A stretch of 64,000 nucleotides of DNA from Octopus vulgaris (lineage: Eukaryota), in contig OX597820.1 in assembly GCA_951406725.2 (NCBI GenBank), positions 26,474,001 to 26,538,000 on the forward strand. Direction: 5' to 3'. Position 1 is the first letter of the stretch. Each line of letters opens with the position of its first letter. Under the pieces are notes generated by a model. The model was not told the origin of the DNA, did no database searches, and was given only the letters and a program-made list of their open reading frames with translations. The position numbers and the translations under genes are program-made. Below are positions 3,624 through 39,369 of this stretch, piece by piece.

Positions 3624-3907
3624 TTTAAGAGATGAGGAATTATGTACCTATGCCATATGCCCATGGGCATATGGCTTAGTGGTTAAGAGCGCGGGCTACT
3701 AATCCCAAGATTCCGAGTTCGATTCCAAGCAGTGACCTGAACAATAACAATAATAATAATAATGATATCGAAAAATACCTTAGGAATGAGAACCCAGGTT
3801 CGAAATTTCCCCAAGACACCTGAAGAAGGTGGAAGGTGTATCAGCTGAAACGTTGTGTTAACAACAAACAAGATGAGGACAAATATCTGTCGAATGTAAA
3901 TAATGTA
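3624..3907 (+). mobile_element. tRNA-headed SINE-like element with a hammerhead-like motif in its 3' part (Penelope-type tail)
   Basis: A box TGGCTTAGTGG (3672-3682), B box GAGTTCGATTCC (3715-3726), (AAT)n linker, hammerhead-like motif 3815-3859, perfect 24-bp palindrome at 3652-3675. Confidence 0.7.
3815..3859 (+). ncRNA. Minimal type I hammerhead ribozyme-like motif
   Basis: GACAC-CTGAAGA-AGGTGG..TCAGCT-GAAA-C-GTT-GTGTT: stem I GACAC/GTGTT, CUGANGA and GAAA cores, stem II with one mismatch, palindromic AACGTT stem III. Confidence 0.7.
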
Positions 3908-4192
3908 GGCAATACAGGTTGAATTATACAAAAATGGCTGGAAGGTTATGATTGGTATGCCCTTCATCATATACCTGCTCTGTGAAGACTAAGCAACAAC
4001 AACAATTACAACAGCTTCTATAAATTCTTTTCACATTGAGTATATCTGTTGCCTTCATCATTTCTTTTGCATTGTTTTTGTTAATATTGATGATGAAGCC
4101 TCATGTCATACGTACATCTTATTGTGGTTGATTGTAGTTTGACACAGTCAAATTCATTTTAACTGTTATGTTGTTATCATGCACCATTACTC

Positions 4193-4609
4193 TCTTTTTA
4201 CTCTTTTACTTGTTTCACTCATTTGACTGTGGCCATGCTGGAGCACCACCTTTAGTCGAGCAAATCGACCCCAGGACTTATTCTTTGTAAGCCTAGTACT
4301 TATTCTATCGGTCTCTTTTGCCTAACCACTAAGTTATGGGGACATAAACACACCAGCATTGGTTGTCAAGTGATGTTGCAGGGGACAAACACAAACATAC
4401 ACAGACATATACATATATATATATATATACACATACACACACACACACATACGACGGGCTTCTTTCAGTTTCCTTCTACCAAATCCACTCATAAGGCTTT
4501 GGTTGGTCCGAGGCTATGGTAGAAGACACTTGCCCAAAGTGCCATGCAGTGGAACTGAACCCGGAACCATGTAGTTCATAAGCAAGCTACTTATCACACA
4601 GCCACTCCT
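4193..4609 (-). mobile_element. SINE group A (tRNA-derived, CORE-like ggcaccttgggcaagtg block, internal TA/TG microsatellite), full length
   Basis: Near-identical copies recur at 10378-10812(+), 14500-14888(-), 17460-17841(-), 18757-19150(+) and 51922-52443(+), with partial copies elsewhere. Confidence 0.85.
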
Positions 4610-4965
4610 TCAAAATTATTGTTTCCTTACAAGTTCAAATAATGAGAATGCAGAGCGAGGAGTTGTTCTTGGACTTTAAATTGAGATGCACACTTCAGGA
4701 ATGAAGGGAATTTTTTTTAGCCATGGAAGGAAAGTTTTTGTTAGGCTAGATCCCAGAGTAGTCTCTTAAACAGAGTAGAGTCTACTATAGGCACATGGGG
4801 CAAGATGTTGGTGTTAAACTCGGTGAAAGCTTTAGTCCATCATTTAAAAACAAGAACAGTCCATCTCACAGGCTTGTATCCTCTTTCTACCCACTCAGTT
4901 TTCACCTACTGTATTTTCTGGCATACAAGTTAACAGCATATATTGTAAACACATAGTGTAACCAT

Positions 4966-5278
4966 GTGAAGGTGCATGGCTCAGTGGTTAGAGCATCGCG
5001 CTTATAATTACAAGGTTGTGAGCTCGAATCCCGGACCAGGGCTGCATGCTGTGTTCTTGAGCAAGACACTTTATTTCACGTTGCTCTAGTTATTTCATGT
5101 TGCCAAGCTGTATCAGCCTTTGCCTTTCCCTTGGATAACACTGGTGTTGTGGAGAGGGGAGGCTGGTATACATGGGTGACTGCTGGTCTTCCATAAACAA
5201 TCTTGCCCGGACTTATGCCTGGGAGGGTTACTTTCTAGGTGCAATCCCATGGTCTGTGTCATGACTGAAGGGGGTCTC
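4966..5278 (+). mobile_element. SINE group C (tRNA head gtggaggcgcatggc..tagtggttag) with 11-bp TSD
   Basis: A and B boxes; TSD agtgtaaccat at 4955-4965 and 5279-5289. Confidence 0.85.
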
Positions 5279-5946
5279 AGTGTAACCATTCTAACATCGT
5301 CATTATCTTTCCAAATCCTGCTGCATTTCCCATGGAATTTTTGGTTCTCCAAAGTTGTTTAGGTGTCGACCTTTTTTGGCTGTAAATTTTGGTCTGAAAA
5401 GCTTGGTTTGTATGTTGGAAAATGTGGTGCCCAGTTATGGTCAGCCTAGTGGGATCAAACTTAGAATCTGTGTGAGAGTGAATCAAACTTCTTTACTATA
5501 CAGCCATGTCTGTTGGTACCTGTTAAACAATCTTCCAGTTTAGTAAACTAACAAGAATAGCTCAGGTTACCGCCTTCATATTTAATTATTCTTTCTTTTC
5601 ATTTTCTCAATTAATTCATTCCATATTTAATTAGGAACAAAAAAAATAAGAAAAAAAGAAATCTTTAGTATTTGCTGTCTTAATTATTTTGAGAATGCCA
5701 AGGGACTGGAATAATTTCGGTCGACTTGTCAAACCTGTAAAGTTGTTTTCTCTGACCTAGAAAAACACTGGTGCAAACTCTTGGTTGTGTGTGTGTGTTT
5801 GTAGATTTCGGGTCATTGAGGTTTTAGCTAAATCAGATGGTTGCCTAGTAAAAGGACTGGTGGATGGATATATTGTGCATTTATGGTGATAGCTGTAGAA
5901 TGACGGAATGGTGACTGAATGAATAAACTTTAAATGAAGATATATA

Positions 5947-6496
5947 TTAGGGTGTCTGGAAAGTTCGTGCCAATTCTTAAAGAAAAAAAAAGGTCAATAA
6001 ATACTTGCCATTACATTTTTAAATCAACCAAATATGAACCATTTTGTTGCACAATATGTCTCCATCTTTCCTTTAACTTGAAAATACCCTCTTCCCAGAA
6101 TTGAGGTGGTCTCATGGCAAAGAATTCATCACTGTATCTTTTTCTGCTATCCAAGGAATTGAAATTTTTACTATTAAGACTATTCTGCAGAAATCCGAAG
6201 GAGCAATATCTGGTGAATATGGAGGGTGGGGTAACACATCCCAGCCGAGCTGCAGCAATTTTTGTCTGGTTCCCAAAGCATCAAGTGCCAAAAATGAACT
6301 TTTTTATCTTCCATTTTAAAGGGTTACAGAATTAACACGGGTAATAGGAACATAAACCTTCTTCCATGAAAAGATAGCTTAAACTGTACTCTAAATGGAG
6401 GTGTAGCCAAATCCTATTTTATGGACTTAACCATGTTCTAAAATAAGTCAAAAGGTAAGCTACTATAAATCGGCACAAACTTTCCGGACAACCCAA
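5947..6496 (-). mobile_element. Internally deleted mariner (DD34D-type) transposon
   Basis: TIRs ttagggtgtctggaaagttcgtgcc / ggcacaaactttccggacaacccaa with TA flanks. Minus-strand transposase remnants QKLLQLGWDVLPHPPYSPDIAPSDF and FWEEGIFKLKERWRHIVQQNGSYLVD*. Confidence 0.9.
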
Positions 6497-7247
6497 TATA
6501 TCTGCTTACCTGCCTGTTTGTCTGCCTACCTGTCTATCTATCTGTCTGTCATAAGTTGATAAAACAAGTATTGATCGAGTTTTTGGTTTCCTCCTCATCA
6601 TCGTTGTTGCTGTCATCATCATTGCTACCATTATCATCTTTACTCCATGTCTGCTTTCCATGCTGGCATGGGTTGTGTATGCTGTTTTAGTCTGGGTCCT
6701 TATTTGCAGTCACTACTCTTCTCTTGGACATGTTAGGGGCACCAGCCTACAGAATGTATGGGGGTTCAAGTTATCATGACACCAGTGCTAGCAAAGTTGT
6801 TTTGTACTCTACAAGACAGAAATGGTTTCTCACTACTCTGTGTTGTCTGTGCTGTAGGGGCCTTGTGATCATTAGAGTGGGTTGGAAAGAGAATATGATT
6901 GAAGAATATGAACCAGAGTGGAAGAGAGAAAGAGATGAGAGTATGGTGGAGGATGAATTAGTGAGATTAGGGTGACAATGTGGCAAGAGGGAGAAAATAG
7001 TGTTAGATGGAGTGATGGAAGAAGGACAGTGATGGCTGGATGTAATGAGAGACAGTGCTTGTAGAAGATAGTGGGAAAAGAGAAAGCAGGCAGAGAACAA
7101 GAGATGGTTAATAAGTGACCTTAGAGGGAAGATGTTGTGGTTGCTAGCAGTACAGATGGGTGATGTTAACACATAACCATTATCAAACTTTATTCAATCC
7201 TGTCTGTTCTACCAAAGGACAATATTTTGTCTCACATTAGCGTTTGA

Positions 7248-7473
7248 CCTTTTGCATTTAAACTGACCATATCTGGCCCAGATATTCTACCTGTTTTATG
7301 TTCAAACCAGCCAGATCTAGCCTCTCACACCTAAACTACAATGTTATTCTAAAAATAAGCAATCACACCATCAAAATCACAAAACGACAAGATGATGCAT
7401 GATTAATTAAAAAGTGTTATAAGTGTTATTAAATAAGTATTATATACAAGCAAGTTATCTGAATACTTAAGGG
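7248..7473 (-). mobile_element. piggyBac-type (TTAA) MITE, same family as 22302-22765 and 42229-42657
   Basis: Ends in gggTTAA; the internal sequence is the reverse complement of the other two copies. Confidence 0.7.
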
Positions 7474-7997
7474 TTAACTGTACACCTCTTCTACAAAACC
7501 CAGCTATAGCTTAGTCACTGAAGGAGACTGTATATGATTGCTTGACCTGCTAAAAAAAGTAGTTGCCAGTCTCTTTGAAATAACACTTTGTCATATCAAA
7601 ACGAAGGGAACAAATATGAGGAAATATAGTCATAGATACTAAAAAAAAAAGAAGAAAAAAAAAGACAGTAGTGGTATGGGTTGAATGTCTTAGATCAAAA
7701 TGCAGCTTCATTAGGGCGAACCTTCAGGTATACTACAACAACAACAGTTAGATTAATTGAGCTTTTAAAAGTTAATGTGTATAGACTATGGGCTGTTTTT
7801 CATTGCAAGCAACAAGACATGAACTCTTGACTCCTTGGTCTACAGCATTGCATTCTCTCAACTTTATCTGCTTCAACAACTCTGATTAGAATTAAAACTG
7901 AAGTGCAGAGAAAATGGGGGAAGCGAAGAAGAAAAGGAAAGAAAGAAGTCTAATAGAGTTTATTCTATAATTTAGAAACTATATTGTATTGTAAGTT

Positions 7998-8064
7998 GTG
8001 TTGTATTGTGTGTGTGGAAATGTGTGTGTATGTATAGTATATATATATGTGTGTGTGTATATAT

Positions 8065-8102
<38 letters not shown>

Positions 8103-8158
8103 GTGTGTGTGTATATATATGTGTGTGTGTATATATATGTGTGTGTGTGTGTATATAT

Positions 8159-8212
<54 letters not shown>

Positions 8213-8515
8213 ATGTATATATGTGTGTGTGTGTATGTATATATGTGTGTGTGTGTATGTATATATGTGTGTGTGTGTATGTATATATGTGTGTGTGTGT
8301 ATGTATATATGTGTGTGTGTGTATGTATATATGTGTGTGTGTGTATGTATATATATATATGTGTGTATGTATATATATATATGTGTGTGTGTGTATGTAT
8401 ATATGTGTGTGTGTGTGTATGTATATATGTGTGTGTGTGTGTATGTATATATGTGTGTGTGTGTATGTATATATATATATATGTATATATGTATATATAT
8501 ATATATATATATGTA
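7998..8515. repeat. Compound (TA)n/(TG)n microsatellite, ~520 bp
   Basis: Read directly; it accounts for the spurious CVY/HTY ORFs in the track. Confidence 0.95.
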
Positions 8516-8850
8516 TGTTGTGCAGTGCTTGTCTGGTTATAATGATGCACCACTTGTTAGTAATTAGGTGCAATTGTCTATCGTGTATATGACATGTCTT
8601 GATGTCTTGGAGGCAATATATGTCTGCATGTGGGATTCTGTGTGTGTGTGTAACTGTTTCTGTCTCTGTGTGTTTCTTTCTTTGGCTCTTTCTGTCTTTC
8701 TGACACAGTCTGCGGTTGTGATGGTGTAGGTTGTGTGATTATGTAATTGCCTCTAATTCCTTTTGATGGAACTAAAATGCTGAAGGGCAATTGAGAAAAT
8801 CATTTGTTGAATGGTCGGTTTGATGCTTTTGGTAAAGTGAAGAAGGCCTT

Positions 8851-8887
<37 letters not shown>

Positions 8888-9187
8888 TAGAGAGAGAATT
8901 GGGGGTTGTGGTTGGAGAACAGGGTATTACAAGTGTATGCTAGTGCTGGTATGTATACACGGAGTGGTGTTAAGTGATGCAGTGTGTGTGTGTAATTGTA
9001 TGTGCTAAGCCAGACTAAAATATGTTAGTTGAAGAGCAAGGTGGAGAGGATGGAGAAAGTTTTGTTGAGAGGAGAGATGGAAAAATACTGAGTGATGGGT
9101 AAAGGAGAGGTTGGGATGAGAGGAGAGAGAAATTATAGGTCTCTCTTTTTCTCTCTTCATCTCTCTCCCTTTCTCTCTCTCTCTCTT

Positions 9188-9267
<80 letters not shown>

Positions 9268-9663
9268 CCTATTTTCTAGAAGCTAATGAGTTTGGTTTCC
9301 ACAGGTGTGGGCATGGGTCTGTGGGAATCTCAATCACATGGTTCTGGGTTCAGTCCCACTGCATGACACATTAAGCGAGTGTCTTTTATTATAGCCCTGA
9401 ACCAACCAAAGCCTTGTGAATAAATTTGGTGGGTGGAAACTGAAAGAAGCCTGTCTTTGTGTTTGTCTTCCACCAGTGCTTGACAGCTGGTGTTGGTTTG
9501 TTTATGTCCCATGTAACTTAACAGGTTGGCAAAAGATACCTTTAAAATAAGTACTATACTTAAAAGAAAATATGTGCTGAGGTTGATTCATTTGACTAAA
9601 AGCCTTCAAGGTGGACCCACAGTGTAGCCACAATCCAGTCGCTGAAACAAAGTGAAAGATGAA

Positions 9664-9694
<31 letters not shown>

Positions 9695-9697
<3 letters not shown>

Positions 9698-9904
9698 ATC
9701 TTCCAAGCAAAATGTGACCTTGTGTGTACCGTTGGTGATTTTTTTCTTTCCTCTGTCTTCCCTTCTCTGGATCTTTCCTTCTATGTTTCCGATGAAGAGC
9801 TCCGCTCGAAACGTTAAACCCTCCTTCTTTCCTGAGCTTCCAATAATACTATATTTGTTCCACGTTCTCGCGTTGTGTTTTTTTGTGCTTTCTTGTTTGG
9901 ATTA

Positions 9905-9910
<6 letters not shown>
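9695..9910 (+). mobile_element. Short Penelope-like terminal-repeat remnant inserted in (TA)n, carrying a hammerhead-like motif
   Basis: Flanked by (TA)n on both sides; motif GTTT-CCGATGA-A-GAGCtccGCTC-GAAA-C-GTT-AAAC at 9785-9819. Confidence 0.6.
9785..9819 (+). ncRNA. Minimal type I hammerhead ribozyme-like motif (U4C core variant)
   Basis: Stem I GTTT/AAAC, core CCGATGA, stem II GAGC/GCTC, GAAA, palindromic AACGTT stem III. Confidence 0.6.
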
Positions 9911-9944
<34 letters not shown>

Positions 9945-10339
9945 ATTGAGAGACAGTTTTGTGCCATTCATATCATGGGCTCCTAGGGAGCGTTTTGTTC
10001 GAATAGCTTGCTGCGCATTTGTTTGGAGATTTAAATTCCTGGATTTTCCTGAAGAGAAAGCTGCAAAATGGTCTCCTTATTCAATCTGAATTTGGAAATT
10101 TGCAGCCTTTGAAACATGTGTAGAAAATAACAAAAAGGAATTTTGTAGAATTTTCGTTCAGCTCCATTTCTTCCCTTCACTAAATATATAAAAATTCAAT
10201 TATCCGCGCTAAGGCACAGTTGCGACACCCCATGGTCGTAACCTCAACCGTGTTTTTTCTGTTGTGATTTTTGCTACCCAGGTATCGGTTAAATTTTGAA
10301 TAATCCGTAACAAGATAATTCATTTATCCATTTCAATAA

Positions 10340-10371
<32 letters not shown>

Positions 10372-10377
10372 TAGGCA

Positions 10378-10551
10378 AAGGAGTGGCTGTGTGGTAAAGT
10401 AGCTTGCTTACGAACCACATGGTTCCAGGTTCAGTCTCACTGCATGGCACTTTGGGCAAGTGTCTTCTACTATAGCCTCGGGCCATCTAAAGCCTTGTGA
10501 GTGGATTTGGTAGACAGAAACTGAAAGAAGCCCGTTGTATATGTATGTGTG

Positions 10552-10596
<45 letters not shown>

Positions 10597-10812
10597 ATAT
10601 GTTTGTGTGTCTGTTTGTCTCCCCCCCCCAACATTGCTTGACAACCGATGCTGGTGTGTTTATGTCCCCCGCAACCTAGTGGTTCGGCAAAAGAGACTGA
10701 TAGAATAAGTACTAGGCTTACAAAGAATAAGTCCTGGGGTCGATTTGCTCAACTAAAGGCATGGCTTGACTCCAGCATGGCCACAGTTAAATGACCGAAA
10801 CAAGTAAAAGAG
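10378..10812 (+). mobile_element. SINE group A, full length
   Basis: ggagtggctgtgtggtaa head, CORE-like block, internal (TA)n/(TG)n, 3' caagtaaaagag. Confidence 0.85.
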
Positions 10813-11699
10813 TATGTGTATGTGTGTGTATACAATCTCCCACATTCACTCCTCTAGTATTTTCATCCCATCTTCCAATCACTCTCAATGTCTTTACCTC
10901 TCTCTCTCTCTCTCTGTATGTAGTGGGAAAAAAAAGAAAGAGTGGTAAAGATATGGGATGGAGATATTAAGGGAGTGAATGTGGGAGACTACAAGAGGGA
11001 GCTGTGCCAGTGGGTGGCTAGGATGTGTGAACAGGGGAGTAGATTTATGATATTTTACTTTTTACATCTTATTTGTTGTACCCTGTGTTCTGTTTAGACT
11101 GACTACACTACCTTCATCAGCTCAACAACTGTGCAGGCTCAATTTAGGATCTGTTCAACACCAGGCTCCCCTTAGGTTTTGTACAACACCACAACATCAC
11201 TTGTATGTGGTGATAAGGTCAATGAGGGATTGTAATATGTGATCATTCAAGCAGCTAGAAATGGCAACCAAATTGCCTACCATCTTTAAAAAAAGTGGAC
11301 ATATTGGATAATGTCATCTTAGAAATATATTGAGAAAAACATGGATGGTCATGGCTGGAATGCTTTTGATCGTGGGTCTGCTGGAACAGGATTAACCTGA
11401 GTGATGTGCCATAGCAGCAACAACTGCAGCAGTTATTTATCTCTATTTAGTCAGACATTCTAACAAATGCTATTCCATCCCTGTACTGGGCCATCATAGC
11501 CTCACTTTGTCAGCTCAGAGATAATGGCATAGAGGTACAAACAAAGGAGCTTAGAAATAACAGCCTAATCCCCATCTGTTCACACCTTATCGGTCTCAAA
11601 AATAAAACATAAGAACACCTTAGGTAATGAATGGAATTCTGGATACTGCTATTATATTTCTACAACACGCAAAATATTGTAACAATTTCTTTTTGCCAC

Positions 11700-12744: not shown

Positions 12745-12794
<50 letters not shown>

Positions 12795-13967: not shown

Positions 13968-14000
<33 letters not shown>

Positions 14001-14888: not shown

Positions 14889-14896
14889 ACACACCC

Positions 14897-14936
<40 letters not shown>

Positions 14937-16682: not shown

Positions 16683-16718
<36 letters not shown>

Positions 16719-18915: not shown

Positions 18916-18954
<39 letters not shown>

Positions 18955-26063: not shown

Positions 26064-26360
26064 AACAAACATTTTATGGCAGCTAGTTATGTCCCTTTAT
26101 AATTCGAGTTCAAATCTTGTTTGAGTCAACTATATTACTCGTCCATCTCTAGGATTGATAAAAATAATTACTGATCAAGCATAAAGTTTGGGTAACTCAA
26201 TTACAAAGCCTCAACAATCATTTTATGGCAGCTAGTTATGTCCCTTTTTAATTTTGGTTCAAACCTTGTTTGGGTCAACTATATCACTCATATAGCTCTG
26301 GGATTGATAAAAACAAGTACTGATCAAGAATAAAGCTTGGTTAACTTAATTACAAGGCTT
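26064..26360. repeat. 149-bp tandem duplication of a decayed group B SINE
   Basis: cattttatggcagctagttatgtccc at 26070 and 26219. Confidence 0.85.
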
Positions 26361-26876: not shown

Positions 26877-27200
26877 CAGCAGTTTTATTTTTATAGCATG
26901 CTTTCACTTCACTTCCGAGCGCAGCTCTGTGTGTCTTGGGTATGTGCTGTGATTTGTTGTGATGTTCTGATGGTTACTGTATTGAAAGTGTTTTGTGTAG
27001 GATGTGTGCAGTACCCAGTAGTGCAATTTTCTGTATTATATGTGTTTGTAAGTCCTGGTGTTTTTGTTATGTATTTGTCTGAATATTTTTTTTATCATAC
27101 CTAATGCGCCTACTATGATAGGAATTGTTTCTGTTTTTAGATTCCACATTCGAGTTACCTCTATTTCCAGGTTTTTGTATTTTGAAAGTTTCGCCATTTC

Positions 27201-27203
<3 letters not shown>
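26877..27203 (-). mobile_element. 5'-truncated R4/Dong-like non-LTR retrotransposon (RLE C-terminus) inserted in (TAA)n
   Basis: Minus-strand KEMAKLSKYKNLEIEVTRMWNLKTETIPIIVGALGMIKK, then after a frameshift ...IQKIALLGTAHILHKTLSIQ*; (TTA)n on both sides. Confidence 0.85.
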
Positions 27204-27237
<34 letters not shown>

Positions 27238-27284
27238 GTATTAGTATTATCATCCTCCTCCTCATCATTTGTTTTCCATTGCAG

Positions 27285-30200
27285 CTGGGCCACCGCTAAC
27301 CCAAAAGTATCAAGTGCAAGTCCGAGCTGTAAAAAGTCAGAGCAGTGAAAGTGGAGATGAGCACTGCACATGTTGTCCGTATGGATACCACATTGATTTG
27401 GATTTTCTCAAGTACTGCGAAAACATGTCAAATGGTAACACACTTAAACAGCTCAAGAAAATCAAACGCAACAAAAAGAAGTTGCGTAAATCAATGGAAT
27501 TCATATTGGATCAGGAAAGTGGGACGGCGACTGAAAACTATGGTGAACTTCCACCCGACATTGTCCACTCAGCTGACGCTAGCCGCATTTTAAATATTGT
27601 TGAGTATGAATCATCAGCGACACGCAACATTCTTGAGGAAATTGATTCGTCAGTGAATGCCAAGATTAAAATGGCTGGGAGACAGTCTTACGTGATGCAA
27701 TCTGCCTATGACAACAATGATACCAGTGAAACAATGCATGCTAAATTTGGTACCTTTTCTTACAAGAATGCTGTTCAGGAAGACGCTTCTGTTCCCAGTA
27801 CGTTGGGCCGAACTGACTCTGTGAGTTCCATCTCATCCCTGTCTACAGTTTCTAGTGAACAAAATTACCCCACAACTAACACAATGTACGAACATTCCTC
27901 ACAGCACACAAAAAGTACTTACCGAACAACCACAGTAACGTCATCAGAATTGGCAGCAACCATAGCAACACATTTTCCACAACAGAATGGTTCTAGCCCA
28001 GCCCATAATTCTGTAACCTTTGACAGCCAAAATTCGACAATGATTAGCAAAGCATCTTTGGAGGCAATCCGCGAAGCAATGGCTGTTAGCCTCCAACGAA
28101 TGAGAGAACTGGAAGAACAAGTGAAAACAATTCCAGTCCTGCAAGTTCGGATTTCTGTCCTCAAAGAAGAAAAACGGCTCCTGATGCTGCAACTGAAAGC
28201 TCAGACCCACAAACTCAATCAAAGAAGCGTTGGTGTTAGCAACAGAACAACTACTTCAGAAAAAACTGTAACAACTTCAGAAAGATCTTGTAGGACTCTA
28301 GAAGAAATAACCAGCCGTATTCATGTAGAGCCTCCAAAACAGATTGAACAAATACAACATAAGGCATACCCTCAACCTCAATTTCACACGGTTCAGACTG
28401 TTGCTGTCATGAAGACTCCCGCTACTCGTTCCATAGGAATTGGAGACCATTCAGTTGAGGATCCTTATGACATCCAACCTGACTTGAGTTCAGCATATTT
28501 CTCAAAATATCCAGATACTCATACTGAGACTTGGGAAAAAGAAACCATCATTTTGCAACCAATTCAGTCAGAAGTTTCCCATGTTTCTCATGTTTCTCAA
28601 CTTGCCCAACATGTTTCTTCTACATCAGCTGAACATCTTGTTTCCTCGAGCCCAGCTGCTGTCAGAAGCCCCAAGCCGGTTACTCGAACTGTAGGTGTCG
28701 GTGATGGAAATGTCTATGACCAATCTGATTCTGGTCTCCACATTCACGAGAAAGAACTTCGCACACTTATTATTGGTCAGCCATCAACTTCCCTGTCTAA
28801 ACGTAATGTTGGTGTTGAGTGCAAGGTATCAACAAGAGATGTTGGTATTTCTTATATCTGTGATGACTTGAAGCCTTCTATGCGTTCAGTAGGTGTCGGT
28901 ACTGACGATGGTAGCCTTTCATCCACCTTGAATATTCGTTTCAAGAGTGAAGAAATCACAACAGCTATACGTCAAGTTTTGAGTAAAAATGTCCGCAGCG
29001 TAGGAGTTAGTTGTCACTTGCATGCATCAGGTAAAGAGGTAGGAACACAATACAGATGGGAGGTGAGTACTCGTAGCATGGGTTGTGGTAATTACAGAGT
29101 AGATGATGTTCCTCCTGAGCCACAGAAACAAGTTCGCACATTTTCTGTTGCTTGTGAAGCCAAACCCACTGTGACACACCGTTACTGTCTGACTGAAAAA
29201 GGATTGACTATGGAGCAAGGTACACTCACTGATTCTCTAAATGTGGAAAGCCGATTCACTAACACACCCAGAGCGCTGTGTGTTAATTCCTCGACAATAA
29301 CAGATAATCCAAAGCTCAAGGTGGATGGCTGTCAAACAGATGTCAAAATATTCATGGCTCTTGAACAGATTTGCAATCGCAGCTGTAACACAGATATTCC
29401 AAATCTACAGACAGTTGGTGTCAATACACAACGGCCTACTCTCACGACATCCAACTATGAACTCGATATCTTCTCAATTGAAAATATAAAAGAAAAAATC
29501 GAACATTATCAAACGTACACAGAGAAAACTATTTCTGGCTCTGGTGAAAGTTCTTTTTCACAATCGAGCACGACCTCCAGGTCAGGAGACCTCTTACAGT
29601 ATGGTGATGGTACTACCATTCATAACAGACGACAGGGTGAGTTTCAAGGTCAGTCTTTACAATCGTCATCATCTGTAACATCAGCACCATCAATGGAATA
29701 CAATACAATTAAATCCTCTGTCACATACGACTCTTCAGGAGGACAGTCTTCAGGAGGACAGTCTTCAGGAGGACAGTCTTCAGGAGGACAGTCTTCAGGA
29801 GGACAGTCTTCAGGAGGACAGTCTTCAGGAGGACAGTCTTCAGATGACCAGTCTTCTGGTAGACATGGTGGTACTCAAGGTGTGACTGTGAAGCAACGGT
29901 CGGTGAAGGCTCCAGACATGATGTCCTCCTCATCAAGTGTAAAAACAACTACATATTTTCAGTCAGATGCTCTTGATTCTGACTCTAAAACTTCCAAATC
30001 TTCCACTTTAGATGCTGAGAGAAGTGCATTTCTGAGAGATATGGCTGAAAGTGCAAAAATGTCAATGATGGGTCTAACAGACTCTAAAACTGAAGGTCAG
30101 ACAGTTATTTCAGGCGTCAGACATAAGCAAGCTGATGGTGCCAATGTAACTGTCAGCTCAAGAGTTGGTGGGAATCAACAAGTTAGTTTGGGTCCCATTG

Positions 30201-32592
30201 TAGACCAACAATATGGCATGAGTTCCACTGGAGATCAACGATATAGTTCAAGTGTCACAGGAGACCAATGGGTTAGCTCAAGTGTTTCTGGAGATCGAGT
30301 TAGCTCAAGTACAACTGGAGATCACCAGTTTATCTTGAGTTCTACAGGAGACCAACAAATTAGCTCAGGCTCTGTTGGAAACCAGCAAACCAGTTCAAGA
30401 ATCACTGGAGATCACTCGGTCAGCTCAAGCTCCGCTGGTAATGAATCAGTTAGTTCAAGTGTCATTGGAGGTCAATTGGTGTATTCAACTGGAGGCCAGT
30501 CTGTCAGTTCAAGAGACTCTGGAGAACATTTAGTTAGTTCAAGTGCTATTGGAGATTCTTCATTCAACTCAAATGTCAGTGAAATTCAGGTTGTTAGCTC
30601 AAATTTAATCAAAGATCAAGCAGTTAGCAGCAGTTTTAAACCTTCAGCTGAAAATGTAGTTGTGTTACATGGAACTGAGCAAAGAGGGTATATGGGCAGT
30701 GGTGCTAATGAAAGGACAGTGACCAGATCATCTGGAAGTAGTGTCTCTGATTCGGAGGTCTGCTTTCCTCAAGAGTATACTATCTCTGCTCAGACCGTAA
30801 ACATACAGCATGTCGACTCTTCAAGATCTAAAGATGGTAAAGGATCACGAGAACAGGAGGTTAGGACTATTAGTGACCGTGGTAATGTAGACACAATTGA
30901 AGGTGGTGTATTGAGTGGAGGGACTCACATGGTGTCTGGATCAATGTACGGTAGGTCCTCTGGATCATCCTCTGAAACGATGCTCAAAACATTAGTGCCT
31001 TCTGAACAGGATCAAACTAGAAAGCAAACTAAACAACTTCACACTGCCACACATTCGTCAGATGTTTATGGATTAGGGTCAGATTATCGAACAGGCATCG
31101 CTTCATCAGGATATATTACTGGAAAAGTTCCACGTGATGAATTTTCTCACCAATCGCTGGTGACAAGCATCAGATATGTTTCTGAGCCTGTTTCTGAAGT
31201 CTCTTCGACTGAGGTACTCTACAGAACTCCACAATCACCGCAAAGTTCTGGCAGTGTTCATGGTAAGACTATCACATATTCTAGTTCTTCAGAAAAGCCA
31301 TCCATGGTTACAACAGTCCACAGTGAGGGGTCTAGTTCAACAGATCAAAATCTTTCGATTGAACCCATGCTCACCAGAACTAAAATGATATCAAAATCTT
31401 CAGAATCTCCTCAGAGTACTGCCAGAGTATACAGTGAGAAAACAACACATAGTAGTTCTTCAGGGACTCATAGACTGGCATCTGAACCTGTAGTTACTGT
31501 TACTGAGACTATCTATAAGTCTCCGGAATCTTCTCAGAGTACCAGCAGAGTATATAGCAAGAATACAACACATAGTTCTTCGGGGGCACCAGTTGTAACT
31601 GAAGTGGTCCGAAGTGGTGAAGGTTACTCTACAAATCAAAGGCTGGCATCTGAACCTGTTGTTTCTATTACTGAAACAATCTATAAGTCTCCAGATTCTT
31701 CTCAGAGTACCAGCAGAGTGTATAGTAAGAAAATGGTGTACAGCAGTTCTTCAGGAGGGCCGGTTGTAACTGAAGTATTACATAGTGGTGAGGGTGATTC
31801 AGCTGATCAAAGGCATTTCTTCGAACCTATGCTCTCTGCATCTACAGCAATGTCTAAAGATTCTGCTTCTTGTAATAACAGCAATGTTTATTCAAAAAAG
31901 ACTGTGTATACTCATTCTTCAGGTACACCTATTGGACAAAGAGAATTCAGAGATGACAGAAACATAGAGTCTCATCAAATATCTGGGTTAAGTACTTCTC
32001 TTTCAGAGAGTAGCCATAATATTGAAGTATCAAATACAGACAGTGATTCAGTGGCTGCATCACTTTCCCTGTCATCATCATCATCTCAAAAACTGGAAGA
32101 CCTCAGTTCATCTGCAGACTTCCCTGACAGTGTGTCGTCTTCTCGTATTTGTGCAGATAGTGTTCCATCTTCTGTTGACAGTGCTGATACCAGGTCATCT
32201 TCTGGTGACTGTCCGCAAAGTGTTATGTCGTCTTCAGACTCCCTTAAGGCAGATCTCGACCGATTGGGTATGGAGATGTTCACAAACAGGCAGAGCAACA
32301 TGTTGGGTTTAGATGCTAACAAAATGCACACAGAATATTCTCAGAGCAGTGGTTGGAATCCTGAAAATACAACATATTCTTTCCGAATGACTGAGACTGT
32401 AACTACTTCATCCTCAGTTGGAAGTGAACCAGACTTGAGTCGAGAAGGAGGAACGAGTTTTGAAAATAGGCATGCTCTTTCCTACGGTAACCTCAGTGAA
32501 CCTAATATCCAGCTGAAATCATGTATAAAGAGAAGCAGTTCAGAACCTGGCGCCAAGAAAGAGATTTCTTTTGCTGAAAGTGTACAGGGCGG
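27285..32592 (+). CDS. KANK: KANK homologue (KN motif and ankyrin repeat domain protein), 5308-nt internal exon
   Basis: 1775-codon open frame. KN motif CTCCPYGYHIDLDFLKYCE...GNTLKQL; KANK coiled coil LEAIREAMAVSLQRMRELEEQVKTIPVLQVRISVLKEEKRLL; repeated RSVGVG-type motifs; C-terminal LKSCIKR...KKEISFAESVQGG matches the KANK LKSIMKK...KKNLQFVGINGG block. Acceptor ttttccattgcAG at 27283-27284; donor GG|GTAAGT at 32592/32593 (phase 2). Confidence 0.95.
29732..29851 (+). repeat. Coding 15-bp perfect tandem repeat (SSGGQ)x7 plus one degenerate unit
   Basis: tcttcaggaggacag seven times, then tcttcagatgaccag. Confidence 0.95.
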
Positions 32593-32734
32593 GTAAGTAG
32601 TGTTCTTGCCAACTAAAATTTAATTTCTATGGTGTCGGGATGATTGATCTAATGGATTGTGTGTTTTGTCTATATAGATTCCTAAAGGTTTTCAGCTGTA
32701 GGCTTCCTCCTCCTCATCACTATTCTTCCTCCAC

Positions 32735-33010
32735 ATCATCATCATCATTTAACGTCTGCTTTTCATGCTAGCATGGGTTGGATGGTTTGACTGAGAACTG
32801 GCGAACCAGATGGCTGCACCAGGCTCCAATCTTGATCTGGCAGAGTTTCTATAGCTGGATACCCTTCCTAACGCCAACCACTCCGAGAGTATAGTGGGTG
32901 CTTTTACGTGTCACCGGCACGGGGGCCAGTCAGGTGGTACTGGCAACGGCCATGCCCAAATGGTGTTTTTTTTACGTGCCACCTGCACACTGGCATAAGT
33001 GCCAGTGAGG
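32735..33010 (-). mobile_element. LINE/SINE 3' tail with (ATG)n terminus (RTE-like)
   Basis: catcatcatcatttaacgtc.gctttccatgctagcatgggttgga...; copies at 35957-36200, 46340-46730, 58786-58932 and, in + orientation, ~15200-15345 and 61225-61370. The RTE assignment is inferred. Confidence 0.7.
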
Positions 33011-33732
33011 ACCTAATCACTATTTTTTCTTATCATCCCTAACCAACATCATTTACATTCATTATGTCCAGGCTTCTTTTTCTGTTTCACTTTGTTTTAA
33101 CTATAGTATTGCAGTGTTCCTAAAAAAAGAAGGCAAAAAAATTGCCCATTCATCTGCACATCCATGTGCAGAATGCATGGTTGATTTTGTATGAGAGAGA
33201 CCTAGTAGCATTGGTTGAATGAGTGCCACCTGAGGCAGCCCTAGAGTTTTCCCTCCACCTATCCTATACAAAGGTCATACACCAGGCTCAAAAGTGCCAC
33301 TACACCCATAAAAGTGTCACCTGGGGCAGATTTCCCCCATCATCACCTGCCAGGTATGCTACTGCACAGACACCTAAGATAACAAAGCAGGAATCTATTC
33401 TGGACTGAATTCTTTGAACAGGTGTTTCACTGTTAATGAATCTCTCTCCATTTGAGCATTTTTTTTTTGCTTCTACATAGTAGGATTTGAACCCTGCACT
33501 GTTCAAACTAATGAGGCATTTGAAAAGTTCTGATGTTCCCACTGCAGTAAACTCTTTCTTCTCCATGTCTCCTTTTACTCTCAGGAAAATAGGGGGAAAA
33601 AAACCCAAACTGCCTGGTGTTCTTTGAACTGGTAGCACTAGACACTATGCGAAGTGTGTGTGTATGCATATTAGGGTTACCCCCATCACCAGAAAAGTGA
33701 TTTTAAAAAAGATTCTATAACTTAGTAATTAT

Positions 33733-33825
33733 ATCCATCCATCTCTACCTATCCATCCATCTCTACCTATCCATCCATCTCTACCTATCCATCCATCTCT
33801 ACCTATCCATCCATATCTACCTATT
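33733..33825. repeat. 18-bp minisatellite (atccatccatctctacct), ~5 units
   Basis: Read directly. Confidence 0.9.
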
Positions 33826-35132
33826 CATATCTATCTTTCTATATCTATCTAGTAAATTTGTTCTATATTGTGTTCAGCTTTACTAATATTATTATTGTTA
33901 CTGCTACTCTTAATATTATCAATATTGAAATTATGAGTATTACAACAAAGTACTGAAGGTGTTTTGGTTAATGTTAGGCATTTCATGTATCTGCATTTAA
34001 ATCCAGTTGTAATTTTCTTCAGTTCAAGTTTGGAGATTATATTATAATAGGTTACAAAAAAAAGTTAAAAATCATATTATTATTATGTTTTGATTTATAT
34101 TAGCCCTTGTGGCCAATAAAAGAATGAATTATTATTATTATTATCATCATTATTATTATCATCATCATTATTATTATTATTGTTTGATAAATGTATGCAT
34201 ATATGTCTTGCTTTTCTAAAAGTTTCAATTTCTGTATATATGTATTTGTGTGTGTATGTATGTATGTATGTGTGTATATATATACACACACACACATACA
34301 TACACGATAAACCTTTTATTTCTTATTTTGTTCTTGGTTCAGTTCATTCCGTTCCTCTTTTTCTCCCTTTTGTTAACTAAATGTCATTCACTTGTTCTGC
34401 CTGTTTGCTTACTTAACCTGCATGCTGCACCTGCTTGCTGGCTAATGCGAGTTCATAATTAGACACACACATGCACACACATTACTGCACCCTGCTGTAT
34501 CTTACTGTCTCTTTTTTCTCTGTCACTCTCTCTCTCTCTTTCTCTCTCTGTGTCTTTGTTTCTCTATCAATACTTGCTTCAGCTGCTGCATTATGTAATG
34601 TGAAGAATTGGGAAAATACTGGATGACTGTCTTTCAAGAACCAACTCTAGCTAATGGGGTTTTTCTCTGCTGGTTTTGGTACTTTCTTACATTTTGGAGT
34701 GTGCTCATACAAACATGCAGATTTGCATATGTGTATATATATATACACACACATTTATATGAATATATATATGAAAATCTGTGTGTATGTGTGTATCTAT
34801 GTATGTATAAAATTCTGTTGCTGGGTGTATTTGTGTGTGTGTGTGTGTGTGTGTGTGTATGCATGCACACATGAATATATACATAAAAATCTGTGTGTGT
34901 ATCTATGTATGTATAAAATTCTGTCACTGGGTGTATTTATTTGTGTGTGTGTGTGTGTGTGTATATAAAGAGAGAGAGTGTGCTTAATATGTATTTTTGA
35001 ATGTATGTGTGTTGTATATATTTGTATTATATACATATTCAAATGTATTTGTATATGAATATTTTTACTGCATGTGTGCATATCTATACATATATGTATG
35101 TGTGTGCATATATATACATATATATAAAACAA

Positions 35133-35160
35133 AGCCTTGGCTTTATTATCTCATTCTGTC

Positions 35161-35211
<51 letters not shown>

Positions 35212-35550
35212 TAGACAGAATGAGATAACAAAGCCAAGGCTATGAGGAGTTTTCAGGACATTTATAATGAAATAGTCATACAGGTGTTTCTGGTATGTTA
35301 TGGATATCCCTTCATCAGAGACAGTCTGAGAAAATATTAGAGTTCGAATTATTATGGAAAAGGAGGAGATAGGGAATCTAGAGGAAACAAGAGAATGAAA
35401 GTAGAAATAAGATGTATAAAGATATTGTATTTGCAGTTCCATTATTCGAGGAAAACGGTGTATAGAAGTGGTAAAAGTTTCTTGTACATGGTATGCAAGT
35501 TCCAATAGCAGTTTCAAATTATGGAGCTATGGAATCAATGTTGCTCGTTT
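35133..35550 (-). mobile_element. Penelope-like remnant: 30-bp inverted terminal copy around (TA)n plus a minus-strand hammerhead-like motif
   Basis: Inverted repeat at 35133-35162 / 35212-35241 (1 mismatch). Minus strand 35322->35275 reads GTCT-CTGATGA-AGGGATAT..ACATACCA-GAAA-CACCTG-TA-TGAC. Confidence 0.6.
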
Positions 35551-38500
35551 GAAAGGGTTTTATATATGTACATGTGTATATATTTGTATATATTGATGTG
35601 TGTGTGTTATGATCGTATATGTTTGTCGTGTTTGTGTAAAAGCTACAATAAAAGCATGTATATACATATGTAAAATACTACTTACTTGTCTGTGTATTTA
35701 TTGAGCTAACTGCTTATCTCTTTTTGTTTTGGTTGAAATTTCGTTTTTCAATTGAAGATTTTTCTTATGTCCTTATTTGAGCTTCATGCTTAGTTTCAAA
35801 CTGTATGAATCCAAAATCTGTTTGTTTGAAAGGCCTTCTTGAACCCTCATCTTTTGAATGAAATGATACTCACACAATGTTAGTGAACATTTGCTGTAGG
35901 TGGTGAAGAATCATGGGAATGATATCTTTCATCTTGATTTTTTTTTTTTTATATTGTTCATCATCGTTTAACGTCCGCTTTCCATGCTAGCATGGGTTGG
36001 ACAATTTGACTGAGGGCTGGCGAACCAGATGGCTGCACCAGGCTCCATTCTTGATCTGGTGGAGTTTCTACAGCTGGATGCCTTCCTAATGCCAACCACC
36101 CTGAGAGTGTAGTGGGTGGTTTTACGTGCCACCGGCACAGGGGCCAGTGAGGCGGTACTGGCAACAACCTCGCTCGAATGTTTTTACACGTGCCACCGGT
36201 ACTGTTTTTACATGGTCAAGGCACAGTAATGTTTCTTGGAGACCTGTCATCATGAACTCTCCTGTCCTAGACAATACATGAGGGGTTTTGCAATTCCTTG
36301 CTGATCAACATACACAAATGATTCGCTTATAGTGATCAAATGTTTGTGCTGCTCATCGGCTCACTTCTGCCATTGAATTAACATTTCCTGTACAGGTGCA
36401 GAAGTGTGCCACTTGTGAAAGTGATTGTAGATCAAAGCGAGATAGACTGTTTTGCTCGTGAACACAAAGCGTGGCCTGATCTGAGAATCAAAACCATAAT
36501 CTTGCTGTTGTGAGTGCAACACCCTGACCACTAGGTCACATGCCTTCACTACTTGATGTGTATAGTAACTGCGGTTTGTGCTTTTCAAGGAAGCAACATC
36601 TGTTCATGATGTGAGTGCAGATATAGGGTGTGGTGTCTTGCATATTTACATTGGTTGTTTGAAGTTTGCTCTGTAGCTTGTAGGTTTGGTTTCATGTTGA
36701 TGAGAACACAAAACAAAATTAGTTTGGAAAACATTGAAACATTATTTGATTGTTCTATCACCCTGTAGAGAATTGCACAAAAAACTAGAATATGAACTAT
36801 GGAAGCTTTGGCTGTTTGGTAAGGAATTTGCTTCCCTACCACATGGTTCTGGGTGTAGTGGCAAGCTGGGCAAGTGCTTACTATTATGGTCTTGGGCTGA
36901 CCAAAGCTTTGAGTGATTTTGGTAGAGAGAAACTGAAAGAAGCCTGTTGTATATGTGTGTTTGTGTGTGAGTGTGCGCGTGTGTCTGTGTTTCTATCCCC
37001 ATAACTTAGCAGTTCAATAAAAGGGACTGATAGAATAAGTACCAAGCTTAAAAAAAAAAAAAACAGTACTGAGTTTGACTCGCTTGACTAACTCCAAGGT
37101 TGTGCTCCAGCATGGTCGCAGTCTAATGATTGAAAATAGTTTAAACAAAAAAGGACACAAGCCAAACTTTAATACACATGTATGGCACATGTAAAATAAT
37201 CTCTGGAATTAATTATCAAACAATTTAAAATCCGTTGCTGATGGTGTTGTGAAGTGCAACATCGTTCTTACAATCTTTTGCTTCCAACAATAAACTACAG
37301 CAACAATGTTTCACTGTTAGATCATTCAGAAGATGAGGCTTGGAAGGTGTTGATATATTAAAGGACTTAGGAATGCTGCTGTTATTCAAACTCAAATATA
37401 AAGGACTTATAGATGTGGATGAAAAAAAACAACATTTGTAATAAAGTGTAAACACAAACATGGCTTCCGTGCAACACACCCATACACAAACAAACATTTC
37501 TTTGGTTGATACCCACCACCCTTTCTATGTTATTGTTACAAGTACTTTTCTCTTGTTTGTTACATGTGTATCATATGTCCTGTAAGGTTAAAAGCTATCT
37601 CTTTCTCTTGTTCCTTCATTCCATCTTTCTCTTTCTCTTTTCCTTTCTCCTTCATTCTCTTTTTTTTTTGTCTCAATCTCTGTCTCTTTTTATGTCATTC
37701 TTTTCTCACTCTGCTTCCTTTTCTTCTATTTTTCCCCTTTCTCTCCTCTTTTTATCTCTCTCTCTCTCACTAAATATTTCACACCGACATAGTCCTCTCT
37801 CTCTTCCTGTTTATAGTTGTAATAACATATGAACAAAAAGAAACATTGAAACATAGTAAAAAGATGAATAACTGGGTTTATTGCAGCTGTGTGTCTTGGG
37901 ATAAATATTTCAACTTCCTCATTATTCCTATTAAACTGTATATTAGCTGTCAGACAGATTCTTTAAAGTAATTAATTTTATTTCAAAAGGCTCAAGTATA
38001 TTTTTCTTTATCTTTTTGTTATGTAAAAGAGAGAATACAGTTTGATGGAATAAAACTCCAGTATATTACTGGTACTTATTCAATGCCTTCATTTTTTATT
38101 TTATTGGTTTCAATCACTGAACTGAGGCTGATCTGGGTCATCACTTTCAAAGGTTTTAGTCATTAATATTGGTACTGAATCTGTACAGATAGTGAATATG
38201 GAACGAGTGTCAGGCTCATTTCAGCAATCTCTGTTTATTGTGCGATTAAGTCCACTGAAGCTGTGTCGTTACAGAGAGTTAGCTCTGTCGTATAAAGTTT
38301 TAAATATTACGAATTATTTATCAGTTTACACATGCATGCATGTGCCCAATACACACAGACGTGTGAGTATATATATGGTGTAATGCACAGATAACCATTA
38401 AAATGTTTTGCTACAGAAACATGTGTAGCATGGATTGAACTGCCATTGTCCATTCTTCTAACTTTATTGTACACATAGACATACACACACACAATGAGCT

Positions 38501-38894
38501 TCCACCGAGTATCCATCGCCTGAATTTCAGTTAAAAGGCATTGGCTTATTGGAACTATCCCAGAAGAAGTATCAAGCCTGGAACCATGTAGTTGTAAAGC
38601 AAACTTCATAATCACACAATCATAACTGCATCCAAGTGTTGCTTATAAGACTATAATTTTGTGTACCAGCAATATCATCCCCCTACAACATTTATATGTA
38701 TACTAGATTCTGATGTTTTTTCACCAGTTGTCATCCATATCAATTTATATATTCTCGAATGTGTACATGTCTAATATGAAGACCTTATGATGATTGTCAT
38801 TCCTAGTGCTATTCCCCTTGCTTTGTACTATTAAATTCTGATGTTCTACTGAGATGATTGACATTTCCATTAGGTTTATTTGATATAAATATAT

Positions 38895-39369
38895 CCAGGA
38901 ACTGTTTAAGGCTGAGTGGGGACATTAGCTTCTTTGTTTGAGGTATAAGGATGCAGTTGTGTGTTGGTAGCCAGCTGGAAAAGATGTTTTCCCTGGGGCT
39001 AAAAAAGGTAGTAACATTATCCTAATCAGGACTGCCACTTTACATTGGCAAATAGATTTTACTCTGTAGTAACGTTACTACTTACTTCTCACTCAGAGAT
39101 TTAAAACTAATTGGTTTCCTCTTTATGAGATCGGTGACTGTGTCACTTTAAAAGTATATACCTCGAACAAGGCCTAGTGCTGCTATCTCTAGTCAACGGT
39201 TATCCTGTGCCGATGAAGAGAAATAACCCAGAAACCACAGTTCGTAGGTACTGTTTAAGGCTGAGTGGGGACATTAGATCCCTTGTTTGAGTTATTAGGA
39301 CACAATTGTGCATTAGTAGCCAGCTGGAAAAAATGTTTTCCTGGAGCTAAAAATGGTAGTAACATCATC
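38895..39369 (+). mobile_element. Direct-repeat (349-bp period) pseudo-LTR/retrozyme-like element with a degenerate hammerhead-like motif at the repeat junction
   Basis: ~120-bp repeat at 38901-39021 and 39250-39369; CCTGTG-CCGATGA-...-GAAA-CCACAG-TT-CGTAGG at 39204-39248. Confidence 0.6.

What the first reader, a model, noticed from the sequence alone, without database searches (positions are those of the whole stretch)
3815..39248. Four sequence-unrelated elements share one hammerhead architecture with palindromic stem III
Seen: motifs at 3815-3859(+), 9785-9819(+), 35275-35322(-) and 39204-39248(+) all read stem I - C(T/C)GA(T/A)GA-A - stem II - GAAA - self-complementary or nearly self-complementary stem III (AACGTT, AACGTT, ACACCTGT, AACCACAGTT) - NUH - stem I'. 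Their stems and flanks are otherwise unrelated. Four such motifs in 36 kb suggests several families of ribozyme-bearing elements are common in this genome (inference). At least the 39204 motif lies in sense orientation inside the KANK pre-mRNA.
Basis: partly seen in the sequence, partly recalled or inferred. Interest (0 to 1): 0.75.

Follow-up and report, generated by a model that had tools for sequence, protein, structure and literature searches.

The report
Penelope retrotransposon ends carrying hammerhead ribozymes
The four motifs are real and are mostly decayed leftover ends of four abundant jumping-gene families of a known kind (Penelope-like elements) that carry a small, predicted self-cutting RNA; they are likely harmless to the host gene, and the one unusual point is that one family's end repeat begins with a tRNA-type promoter signal that may drive it.

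Summary
All four motifs are present and beat chance (4 vs 0.16 in shuffles; genome-wide 19,543 and 1,191 exact matches vs 6 and 8 controls). Each is the window's single copy of a different high-copy family with the published minimal type I hammerhead of Penelope-like elements (PLEs; PMC4209133). Motif 1 is the end repeat (pLTR) of a Penelope/Poseidon-type element. Motif 2 ends a Neptune-type element. Motif 3 ends a third RT-endonuclease PLE. Motif 4 is a 350-bp non-coding partial tandem with PLE-type insertion marks. Three window copies are damaged, including the sense copy in the inferred KANK intron, so cleavage of host RNA is unlikely. Residual interest: family 1 starts with A/B boxes, its short copies tend to begin there, and its ORF lacks T4 runs (weak). 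Families 2 and 4 carry a U4C core, yet family 2 has over 7,000 copies. The scan noted the same kind of thing earlier elsewhere in this genome (e1-8663237, e1-8669779, e1-8669850). Verdict: new members of a known kind.

The parts
3613..3649 (-). [quoted passage not shown]
   Evidence: blastn, 92% to ref 271-307
3655..3907 (+). Family 1: solo pLTR of a Penelope/Poseidon-type PLE
   Evidence: 94% to L003 copy; same repeat flanks the RT-EN ORF in L373 and follows the EN in L365
3665..3737 (+). tRNA-like head of family 1: A-box-like 3672-3682, B-box-like 3716-3727, short palindrome at its 5' edge
   Evidence: read from sequence; box consensus recalled; ARAGORN of 30 heads at score 90-100 and 4 of 30 at 80; no Rfam tRNA match
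3786..3788 (+). ATG that, in longer copies, opens the frame running through the hammerhead into the PLE ORF
   Evidence: frame continues into the ORF in L351/L367 and L373; use as start codon is inferred
3815..3859 (+). Motif 1: minimal type I hammerhead, predicted cut 3854/3855; one base lost in stem II
9707..9908 (+). Family 2: about 200-bp 3' end of a Neptune-type PLE, between (AT)14 at 9667-9694 and (TA)16 at 9909-9941
9785..9819 (+). Motif 2: minimal hammerhead with U4C core, predicted cut 9815/9816; matches its family
27245..32593 (+). Host gene context: 1783-codon open frame with KN motif (KANK-family exon)
   Evidence: PF12075 E 4.5e-12; ankyrin exon downstream in L253:8798-9022
35220..35561 (-). 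Family 3: 5'-truncated 3' UTR and end of an RT-endonuclease PLE, ending at (TA)24 (35164-35211); antisense to KANK
35275..35322 (-). Motif 3: hammerhead with 8-nt palindrome and extra A before GAAA; damaged in stems I, II and III
38896..39364 (+). Family 4: 1.3 units of a 350-bp non-coding head-to-tail repeat, one hammerhead; sense to KANK
39204..39248 (+). Motif 4: hammerhead with U4C core, extra A before GAAA, broken palindrome; predicted cut 39242/39243

Best explanation
The four motifs are the ends of four families of Penelope-like retroelements (three traced to protein-coding elements, one likely a non-coding passenger), each carrying the minimal type I hammerhead that is predicted to fold only as a dimer through its palindromic stem III; the window copies are post-insertion relics that likely do not cut host RNA. 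Mechanism: the element's RT-endonuclease nicks AT-rich DNA and starts reverse transcription inside the RNA just downstream of the hammerhead (shown for anole Poseidon, PMC11167929; inferred here). Every insertion, however truncated, therefore keeps the ribozyme, and solo motifs flood the genome. The architecture is conserved across families by selection on the master elements (inferred); inserted copies then decay neutrally (shown by the scatter of substitutions, much of it at CpG).
For: Architecture equals the published consensus: extra nucleotide between 9 and 10.1, G10.1-C11.1, palindromic 15.x-16.x, short stem I (PMC4209133; family majorities). Family 1: pLTR-ORF-pLTR with 2,498-bp period in L373, RT and endonuclease followed by the repeat in L365; RVT_1 E 4.7e-8. 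Family 2: continuous homology from a GIY-YIG-like frame to the hammerhead over about 2 kb in L376/L379, L383 and L392; 76 of 84 scorable 3' ends abut (TA)4+. Family 3: endonuclease-like frame, 3' UTR and hammerhead region colinear on one strand in L259, L260, L262, L272, L282, L283; upstream RT scores E 3e-6 to 6e-4 against a PLE RT profile in 4 of 8 loci, best window control 0.33; ESM Atlas neighbours carry HTH_animal 26% and RVT_1 11-27%. Family 4: period 326-361 in 29 of 30 loci, 5' inversion in 22 of 30 (two of these loci overlap one site), 3' ends in two clusters about 55 nt apart. An intact 781-codon Neptune-type PLE in the same genome has the published U3-A8 variant in 6 of 6 full-length copies fetched. 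The dimer is the predicted optimum for an intact family-3 copy (-30.7 kcal/mol), but costs -3.5, +3.9 and +7.0 for window motifs 1, 3, 4 against -20.7, -30.7 and -26.0 for good family copies.
Against: No cleavage was measured. For family 2 the modelled dimer (-5.7) is far from the predicted optimum (-22), and for family 1 it is not the optimum either. The endonuclease pieces are weak by Pfam: family 1 none, family 2 E 0.0096 (below cut-off), family 3 no GIY-YIG hit; clade labels rest on recalled motifs, with no tree. No coding partner was found for family 4 in 30 loci, and 0 of 30 family-4 copies pass a strict intactness test. Within families there is no compensatory covariation in the alignments; between families only four were testable (strand-swap test, 181 of 5000 reach the observed value, the floor for four items).
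Confidence: 0.9

Rival explanations
1. The motifs are chance matches to a loose, after-the-fact pattern.
For: Only a very relaxed descriptor recovers all four; Rfam finds none.
Against: 19,543 vs 6 and 1,191 vs 8 genome-wide; family majorities restore perfect palindromes and stems; position at PLE ends.
Confidence: 0.01
2. The sense copy at 39204 is a co-opted, active intronic ribozyme that cuts or regulates KANK pre-mRNA.
For: Sense orientation in the inferred intron; 6-bp stem I still pairs; conserved intronic hammerheads are reported in amniotes (passages, PMC7229834).
Against: Palindrome broken (4 unpaired positions in the homodimer, +7.0 kcal/mol), U4C core, 2-of-3-pair stem II, single copy with no partner of the same palindrome in the window; 87% identity to relatives, like any other decayed copy.
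Confidence: 0.04
3. Family 1 is a separate tRNA-derived SINE that borrowed a PLE tail and has no coding parent (my first reading).
For: tRNA-like head with A/B boxes; 10 of 19 position-sampled copies start in the head; pLTR candidates outnumber ORF candidates about ten to one (2,907 vs 296).
Against: The same head-hammerhead unit sits at both ends of a full RT-endonuclease element, and the tail runs in frame into its ORF.
Confidence: 0.1
4. The hammerheads are passengers that PLEs do not need, and U4C families are drifting toward inactivity.
For: Catalytic mutants did not reduce insertion by anole Poseidon in vitro (PMC11167929); U4C lowers activity in vitro (PMC3088659); U4C is the master state in 75 of the first 100 listed family-2 copies of 7,106.
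Against: All other core positions, the stems and the palindrome are kept in four unrelated families; U4C still supported viroid infectivity.
Confidence: 0.25

Closest known systems
Minimal type I hammerheads in pLTRs of metazoan PLEs (Cervera and de la Pena 2014, PMC4209133; read parts 1-2 of 4 and supplement parts 1-2 of 3)
   Same: Core, unpaired base after A9, G10.1-C11.1, short stem I, palindromic stem III predicted to pair in a dimer, many sequence-divergent families per genome, mostly solo copies from truncated elements, U3-A8 variant.
   Different: Two families here carry U4C; all 56 cores in their Fig. S3 text read with U4. Two carry an extra A before GAAA (1 of 56 there). Their molluscan examples are a limpet and an oyster. 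Counts here (over 20,000 exact matches) exceed their 4,000-9,000.
Poseidon_Ac of the green anole (PMC11167929; passages and section 3 part 2)
   Same: ORF starts at the hammerhead and runs through it; copies end at a tail inside the ORF; AT-rich targets.
   Different: Family 1's pLTR begins with a tRNA-like A/B-box head and an (AAT)n tract, and most copies are solo pLTRs; the passages read mention no such head.
Animal non-LTR retrozymes (PMC7229834, passages; bioRxiv 10.64898/2026.07.22.740005, part 1 of 5 and passages)
   Same: Family 4: non-coding, about 350-bp head-to-tail unit with a type I hammerhead, dispersed, proposed to derive from PLEs.
   Different: Mostly 1.1-1.7 units with one hammerhead, so it misses their two-hammerhead criterion for an active retrozyme; minimal U4C motif with an 8-nt palindrome; circles not shown.
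Schistosome Sm-alpha/Sj-alpha SINE-like repeats (figure legend and references in PMC6765202; other details recalled)
   Same: Promoter followed by a hammerhead in a short repeat, like solo family-1 copies.
   Different: Those have canonical hammerheads and no coding parent is described in what I read; family 1 is the end repeat of an autonomous PLE.
Dimer-cleaving small hammerhead variants (Lunse, Weinberg and Breaker 2017; seen only as cited in PMC6765202)
   Same: Diminished palindromic stem III, association with PLEs, dimer cleavage.
   Different: The paper could not be read, so it may already contain the U4C and extra-A variants.

Membership tests
PLE minimal type I hammerhead | Core CUGANGA...GAAA...UH | tested here: met
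   Families 1 and 3 canonical. Families 2 and 4 differ at one position (U4C); family 2 has an older U4 subfamily.
PLE minimal type I hammerhead | Unpaired base between 9 and 10.1, and G10.1-C11.1 pair | tested here: met
   All four family majorities; window motif 1 has G-U and motif 3 a shifted pair.
PLE minimal type I hammerhead | Palindromic stem III with no closable loop | tested here: met
   Perfect palindromes in all four family majorities; broken in window motifs 3 and 4.
PLE minimal type I hammerhead | Covariation of stems | tested here: inconclusive
   None seen within families; between four families the swap test reaches its floor, 181 of 5000.
PLE minimal type I hammerhead | Self-cleavage as a dimer | not testable with these tools
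   Only folding energies.
Penelope-like elements (EN+) | RT followed by C-terminal GIY-YIG endonuclease upstream of the end repeat | tested here: met
   Family 1; family 2 endonuclease only, RT not reached; family 3 RT by profile, endonuclease by recalled motifs. Not met for family 4.
Penelope-like elements (EN+) | pLTR from partial tandem, 5' inversions, optional 3' tail | tested here: met
   Family 1: L373 pLTR-ORF-pLTR, 32 of 49 loci with a 5' inversion (short head hairpins included), 0 of 49 at the 3' side, 18 of 49 reach the tail. Family 4: 22 of 30. Family 2: 0 of 30 inversions, 2 of 30 tandems; family 3: 6 and 3 of 30.
Penelope-like elements (EN+) | Clade assignment (Penelope/Poseidon, Neptune, Nematis) by RT phylogeny | not tested
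   Labels rest on recalled motifs and on the linker description in PMC8557442; no tree was built.
Non-LTR retrozyme (family 4) | Non-coding tandem unit of 150-400 bp with type I hammerhead | tested here: met
   Period 326-361 in 29 of 30 loci, no PLE ORF found.
Non-LTR retrozyme (family 4) | Two or more consecutive units with complete hammerheads | tested here: not met
   Window copy 1.3 units, one motif; arms of 372-839 nt, 28 of 30 under two units; 0 of 30 strictly intact.
Non-LTR retrozyme (family 4) | Expression as small circular RNA | not tested
   No reads were laid on family 4.
tRNA-derived SINE (family 1) | tRNA-related head with A and B boxes | tested here: inconclusive
   Boxes at tRNA spacing by eye; ARAGORN 0 of 30 at score 90, 4 of 30 at 80; no Rfam tRNA match.
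tRNA-derived SINE (family 1) | Non-autonomous, no coding capacity of its own | tested here: not met
   It is the end repeat and ORF start of a coding element.

The most novel reading that the evidence does not exclude
Family 1 is an autonomous Penelope/Poseidon retrotransposon read by RNA polymerase III from a tRNA-type promoter in its own pLTR. Because PLE reverse transcription starts inside the RNA shortly after the hammerhead, priming near the 5' end of such a transcript writes a 250-300-bp SINE-like copy, so one element makes both its protein and thousands of SINE-like offspring. Alongside it, a U4C hammerhead subfamily has out-amplified its canonical parent.
Probability: 0.35. Interest if true: 0.62.

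Novelty: new member of a known kind. Interest (0 to 1): 0.3.

Why it matters
As stated, the finding rediscovers a published signature (minimal hammerheads of Penelope-like elements) in a genome where it is very abundant; that is useful for repeat annotation, since Rfam misses these motifs, but it is not surprising. Two details could matter. If family 1 is transcribed by polymerase III, it would be a protein-coding retrotransposon under a tRNA-type promoter and a direct route from an autonomous element to a SINE. The natural U4 versus U4C subfamily pair in family 2 offers a ready comparison for the open question of whether PLEs need ribozyme cleavage at all.

Tried and rejected
Rfam scans gave only simple-repeat artefacts and no hammerhead or tRNA. 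A Pfam GIY-YIG search of the genome returned mainly one Neptune-type family that is not the parent of any of the four. For the family-1 stretch no RNA holder on record was listed. Three raw RNA runs under another organism label and one contig set were laid on one family-1 locus: reads on both strands equally and no place where many molecules begin or end; the libraries look unstranded and fragmented, so this says nothing on cleavage or polymerase. Pairwise BLAST, Pfam and PDB sequence searches did not recognise the family-3 RT piece; a profile and the ESM Atlas did. No coding partner was found for family 4 in 30 loci. An upstream stretch of family 4 is complementary to its loop II by eye, but folding one copy did not return that pairing. 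No read evidence was obtained for the KANK exon-intron structure. Lunse et al. 2017 could not be read. Literature searches returned no listing that describes a tRNA-headed PLE pLTR; most hits were seen as listings only, and Repbase, Dfam and subscription journals were not searchable.
Full report
Observation. The four motifs are in the sequence as described. A core-only pattern finds exactly these four in the window against 0.16 in 200 local dinucleotide shuffles; a structured descriptor needs to be very relaxed to take in all four. The elements do not resemble each other, and each occurs once in the window. The true stem III palindromes run from A15.1 to U16.1 (4 nt in motifs 1-2, 8 nt in motifs 3-4), and motifs 3 and 4 have an extra A before GAAA.

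Genome context. The window lies in a 2.8-Gb animal genome, probably an octopus according to earlier scan notes; I did not test this. A KN-motif frame at 27245-32593 and an ankyrin exon about 58 kb further on the same strand make a KANK gene likely, with motif 4 sense and motif 3 antisense in an intron. The link between the exons is inferred. Whether motifs 1 and 2 lie in a transcript is unknown.

Abundance. Each motif belongs to a high-copy family (2,907, 4,505, 2,330 and 1,706 first-look candidates, 40 scored each; not copy numbers). Exact patterns give 19,543 matches against 6 for the reversed control and 1,191 against 8 for the extra-A type. That is about 0.5 exact matches per 64 kb. Since only 6, 20, 4 and 0 of 30 best-hit copies pass a strict intactness test, four partly decayed copies in one window are ordinary here.

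Architecture. Majority sequences of 30 copies per family restore perfect palindromes and paired stems I and II, except for a weak stem II in family 4. This is the minimal hammerhead of Penelope-like elements described in PMC4209133 (parts 1-2 of 4 and supplement parts 1-2 of 3): unpaired base after A9, G10.1-C11.1, palindromic stem III, dimer folding, low activity in vitro, many divergent families, mostly solo copies. Variation within families looks like neutral decay, not covariation. Between the four families the strand-swap test reaches its floor (181 of 5000).

Family 1. The unit is a tRNA-like head, an (AAT)n tract, an ATG, the hammerhead and a tail. In L029 the tail runs in frame into a coding stretch. 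Searching with that stretch led to L373, a decayed pLTR-ORF-pLTR of 2,498-bp period, and L365, where RT and endonuclease end directly before the repeat. The RT matches RVT_1 at E 4.7e-8; the endonuclease piece has no Pfam hit and matches the Neptune endonuclease at E 1e-4. The motifs are Penelope/Poseidon-like by recall. As in anole Poseidon, the frame passes through the ribozyme and copies end inside the ORF (PMC11167929). Of 49 short-copy loci, 32 have a 5' inversion and none a 3' inversion. Thirty of the 49 were selected for having the head; of the 19 sampled by position, 10 start in the head, and 1 reaches upstream into the ORF end. Three long copies (1.6-2.0 kb) have no T4 run on the sense strand against 2.4-3.1 expected (9 to 19 of 300 shuffles as low); L373 has 2 against 3.8; the copies share one master, and other PLE frames show no deficit. 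This is weak support for polymerase III. Against it, ARAGORN and Rfam do not call the head a tRNA, the hairpin at the head could itself fix the 5' ends, and an uncapped transcript would need a way to be translated.

Family 2. Most copies are about 200 bp; 76 of 84 scorable 3' ends abut (TA)4+. Longer copies run continuously for about 2 kb to a GIY-YIG-like frame of Neptune type (L376/L379, L383, L392; Pfam E 0.0096, below cut-off). A 33-nt exact pattern has 7,106 matches; by my count of the first 100 listed, positions 3-5 read CCG in 75, CTG in 20, CCA in 3 and CAG in 2. The excess of CTG over CCA, and linked diagnostic bases in 3 of 4 CTG loci among 30 examined, show an older U4 subfamily beside a larger U4C one. 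Among 30 long copies found with a U4 query, 24 of 25 scorable have U4 (biased by the query). U4C is reported to lower activity in vitro yet permit viroid infectivity (PMC3088659, passage).

Family 3. Homology extends over 1 kb upstream through a pyrimidine-rich non-coding stretch to a cysteine-rich linker and endonuclease-like frame, colinear with the hammerhead region in at least six loci. The RT upstream scores E 3e-6 to 6e-4 in 4 of 8 loci against a profile of PLE RTs from this genome, best control 0.33, and its ESM Atlas neighbours carry HTH_animal and RVT_1. Pfam, BLAST and PDB searches did not recognise it. All copies seen are broken. The clade may be Nematis (recalled motif).

Family 4. 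A non-coding unit of about 350 bp occurs as partial head-to-tail tandems, with 5' inversions in 22 of 30 loci and two clusters of 3' ends; four PLE proteins found no coding sequence in these loci. It behaves like a PLE-mobilised, retrozyme-like passenger (PMC7229834, passages; bioRxiv 10.64898/2026.07.22.740005, part 1 of 5 and passages) but fails the two-hammerhead criterion in nearly all loci. Its core is U4C in the majority of copies.

Are the window copies active? The modelled dimer costs -3.5, -5.7, +3.9 and +7.0 kcal/mol for motifs 1-4, against -20.7, -5.7, -30.7 and -26.0 for good family copies; only for family 3 is the dimer the predicted optimum. Motif 4, the sense intronic copy, has a broken palindrome and no partner in cis. 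Cleavage of KANK pre-mRNA is therefore unlikely (inference). The RNA data reached were uninformative.

Mechanism. Shown here: the motifs sit at the ends of PLE families, three with coding parents. Shown elsewhere: PLE RT starts inside the RNA downstream of the hammerhead at AT-rich nicks, the ribozyme needs the protein, and cleavage is not needed for insertion in vitro (PMC11167929). Inferred: this explains why every truncated copy keeps the motif, the TA-rich targets and the solo copies.

Novelty. The kind is published, and this scan has noted it elsewhere in the genome (AI notes, used as leads only). Nine literature searches listed no description of a tRNA-headed PLE pLTR. Lunse et al. 2017, part 3 of the 2014 supplement, the bioRxiv supplements, Repbase and Dfam were not seen and may cover the U4C, extra-A or tRNA-head variants. 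Other papers seen as passages only: PMC8557442, PMC6765202, PMC8967140. Verdict: new members of a known kind, interest 0.3; the polymerase III reading of family 1 has probability about 0.35 and would deserve about 0.6.

Noticed in passing
L151-L156 (e.g. L153 1439-3781 +, motif at 4666): Young Neptune-type PLE with an intact 781-codon RT and GIY-YIG frame, many near-identical copies, and a U3-A8 minimal hammerhead 880-1100 nt after the stop.
   Followed up: partly
window 27036-27407 (-): 122-codon fragment resembling the end of a restriction-like endonuclease non-LTR element (similar frame in L369 and L185; type recalled), interrupted by an (AAT)n tract and overlapping the start of the KANK open frame; no Pfam hit.
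   Followed up: partly
window 35136-35238: The (TA)24 tract after family 3 is flanked on the far side by an inverted copy of the last 26-28 nt of the element, forming a long hairpin.
   Followed up: no
window 2876-3445 (-): Stop-to-stop frame whose first 40 or so residues look like ordinary protein before a triplet repeat; it may be an exon of another gene, which would put motif 1 on its antisense strand.
   Followed up: no
window 29732-29856: 15-bp coding repeat (8.3 copies, Ser/Gly/Gln-rich) inside the unusually long 5.3-kb KANK exon.
   Followed up: no
L168:4725 +, L161:573 -, L125:200 +, L380:3133 (oriented), L233, L244; further rows: Further hammerhead families with other palindromes and U3-A8 or U4C cores; the extra-A type also occurs with several different palindromic hexamers.
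   Followed up: no
L029 (oriented, between two family-1 repeats); L330, L344, L349: Internally deleted family-1 elements: pLTR, ORF start, then a second pLTR within 250-550 nt; possible short non-autonomous derivatives.
   Followed up: partly
window 13412-61216 (families D11-D20): Many copies of at least three other short interspersed repeats, plus 149-bp (26064-26355) and 168-bp (56750-57085) tandem duplications.
   Followed up: no
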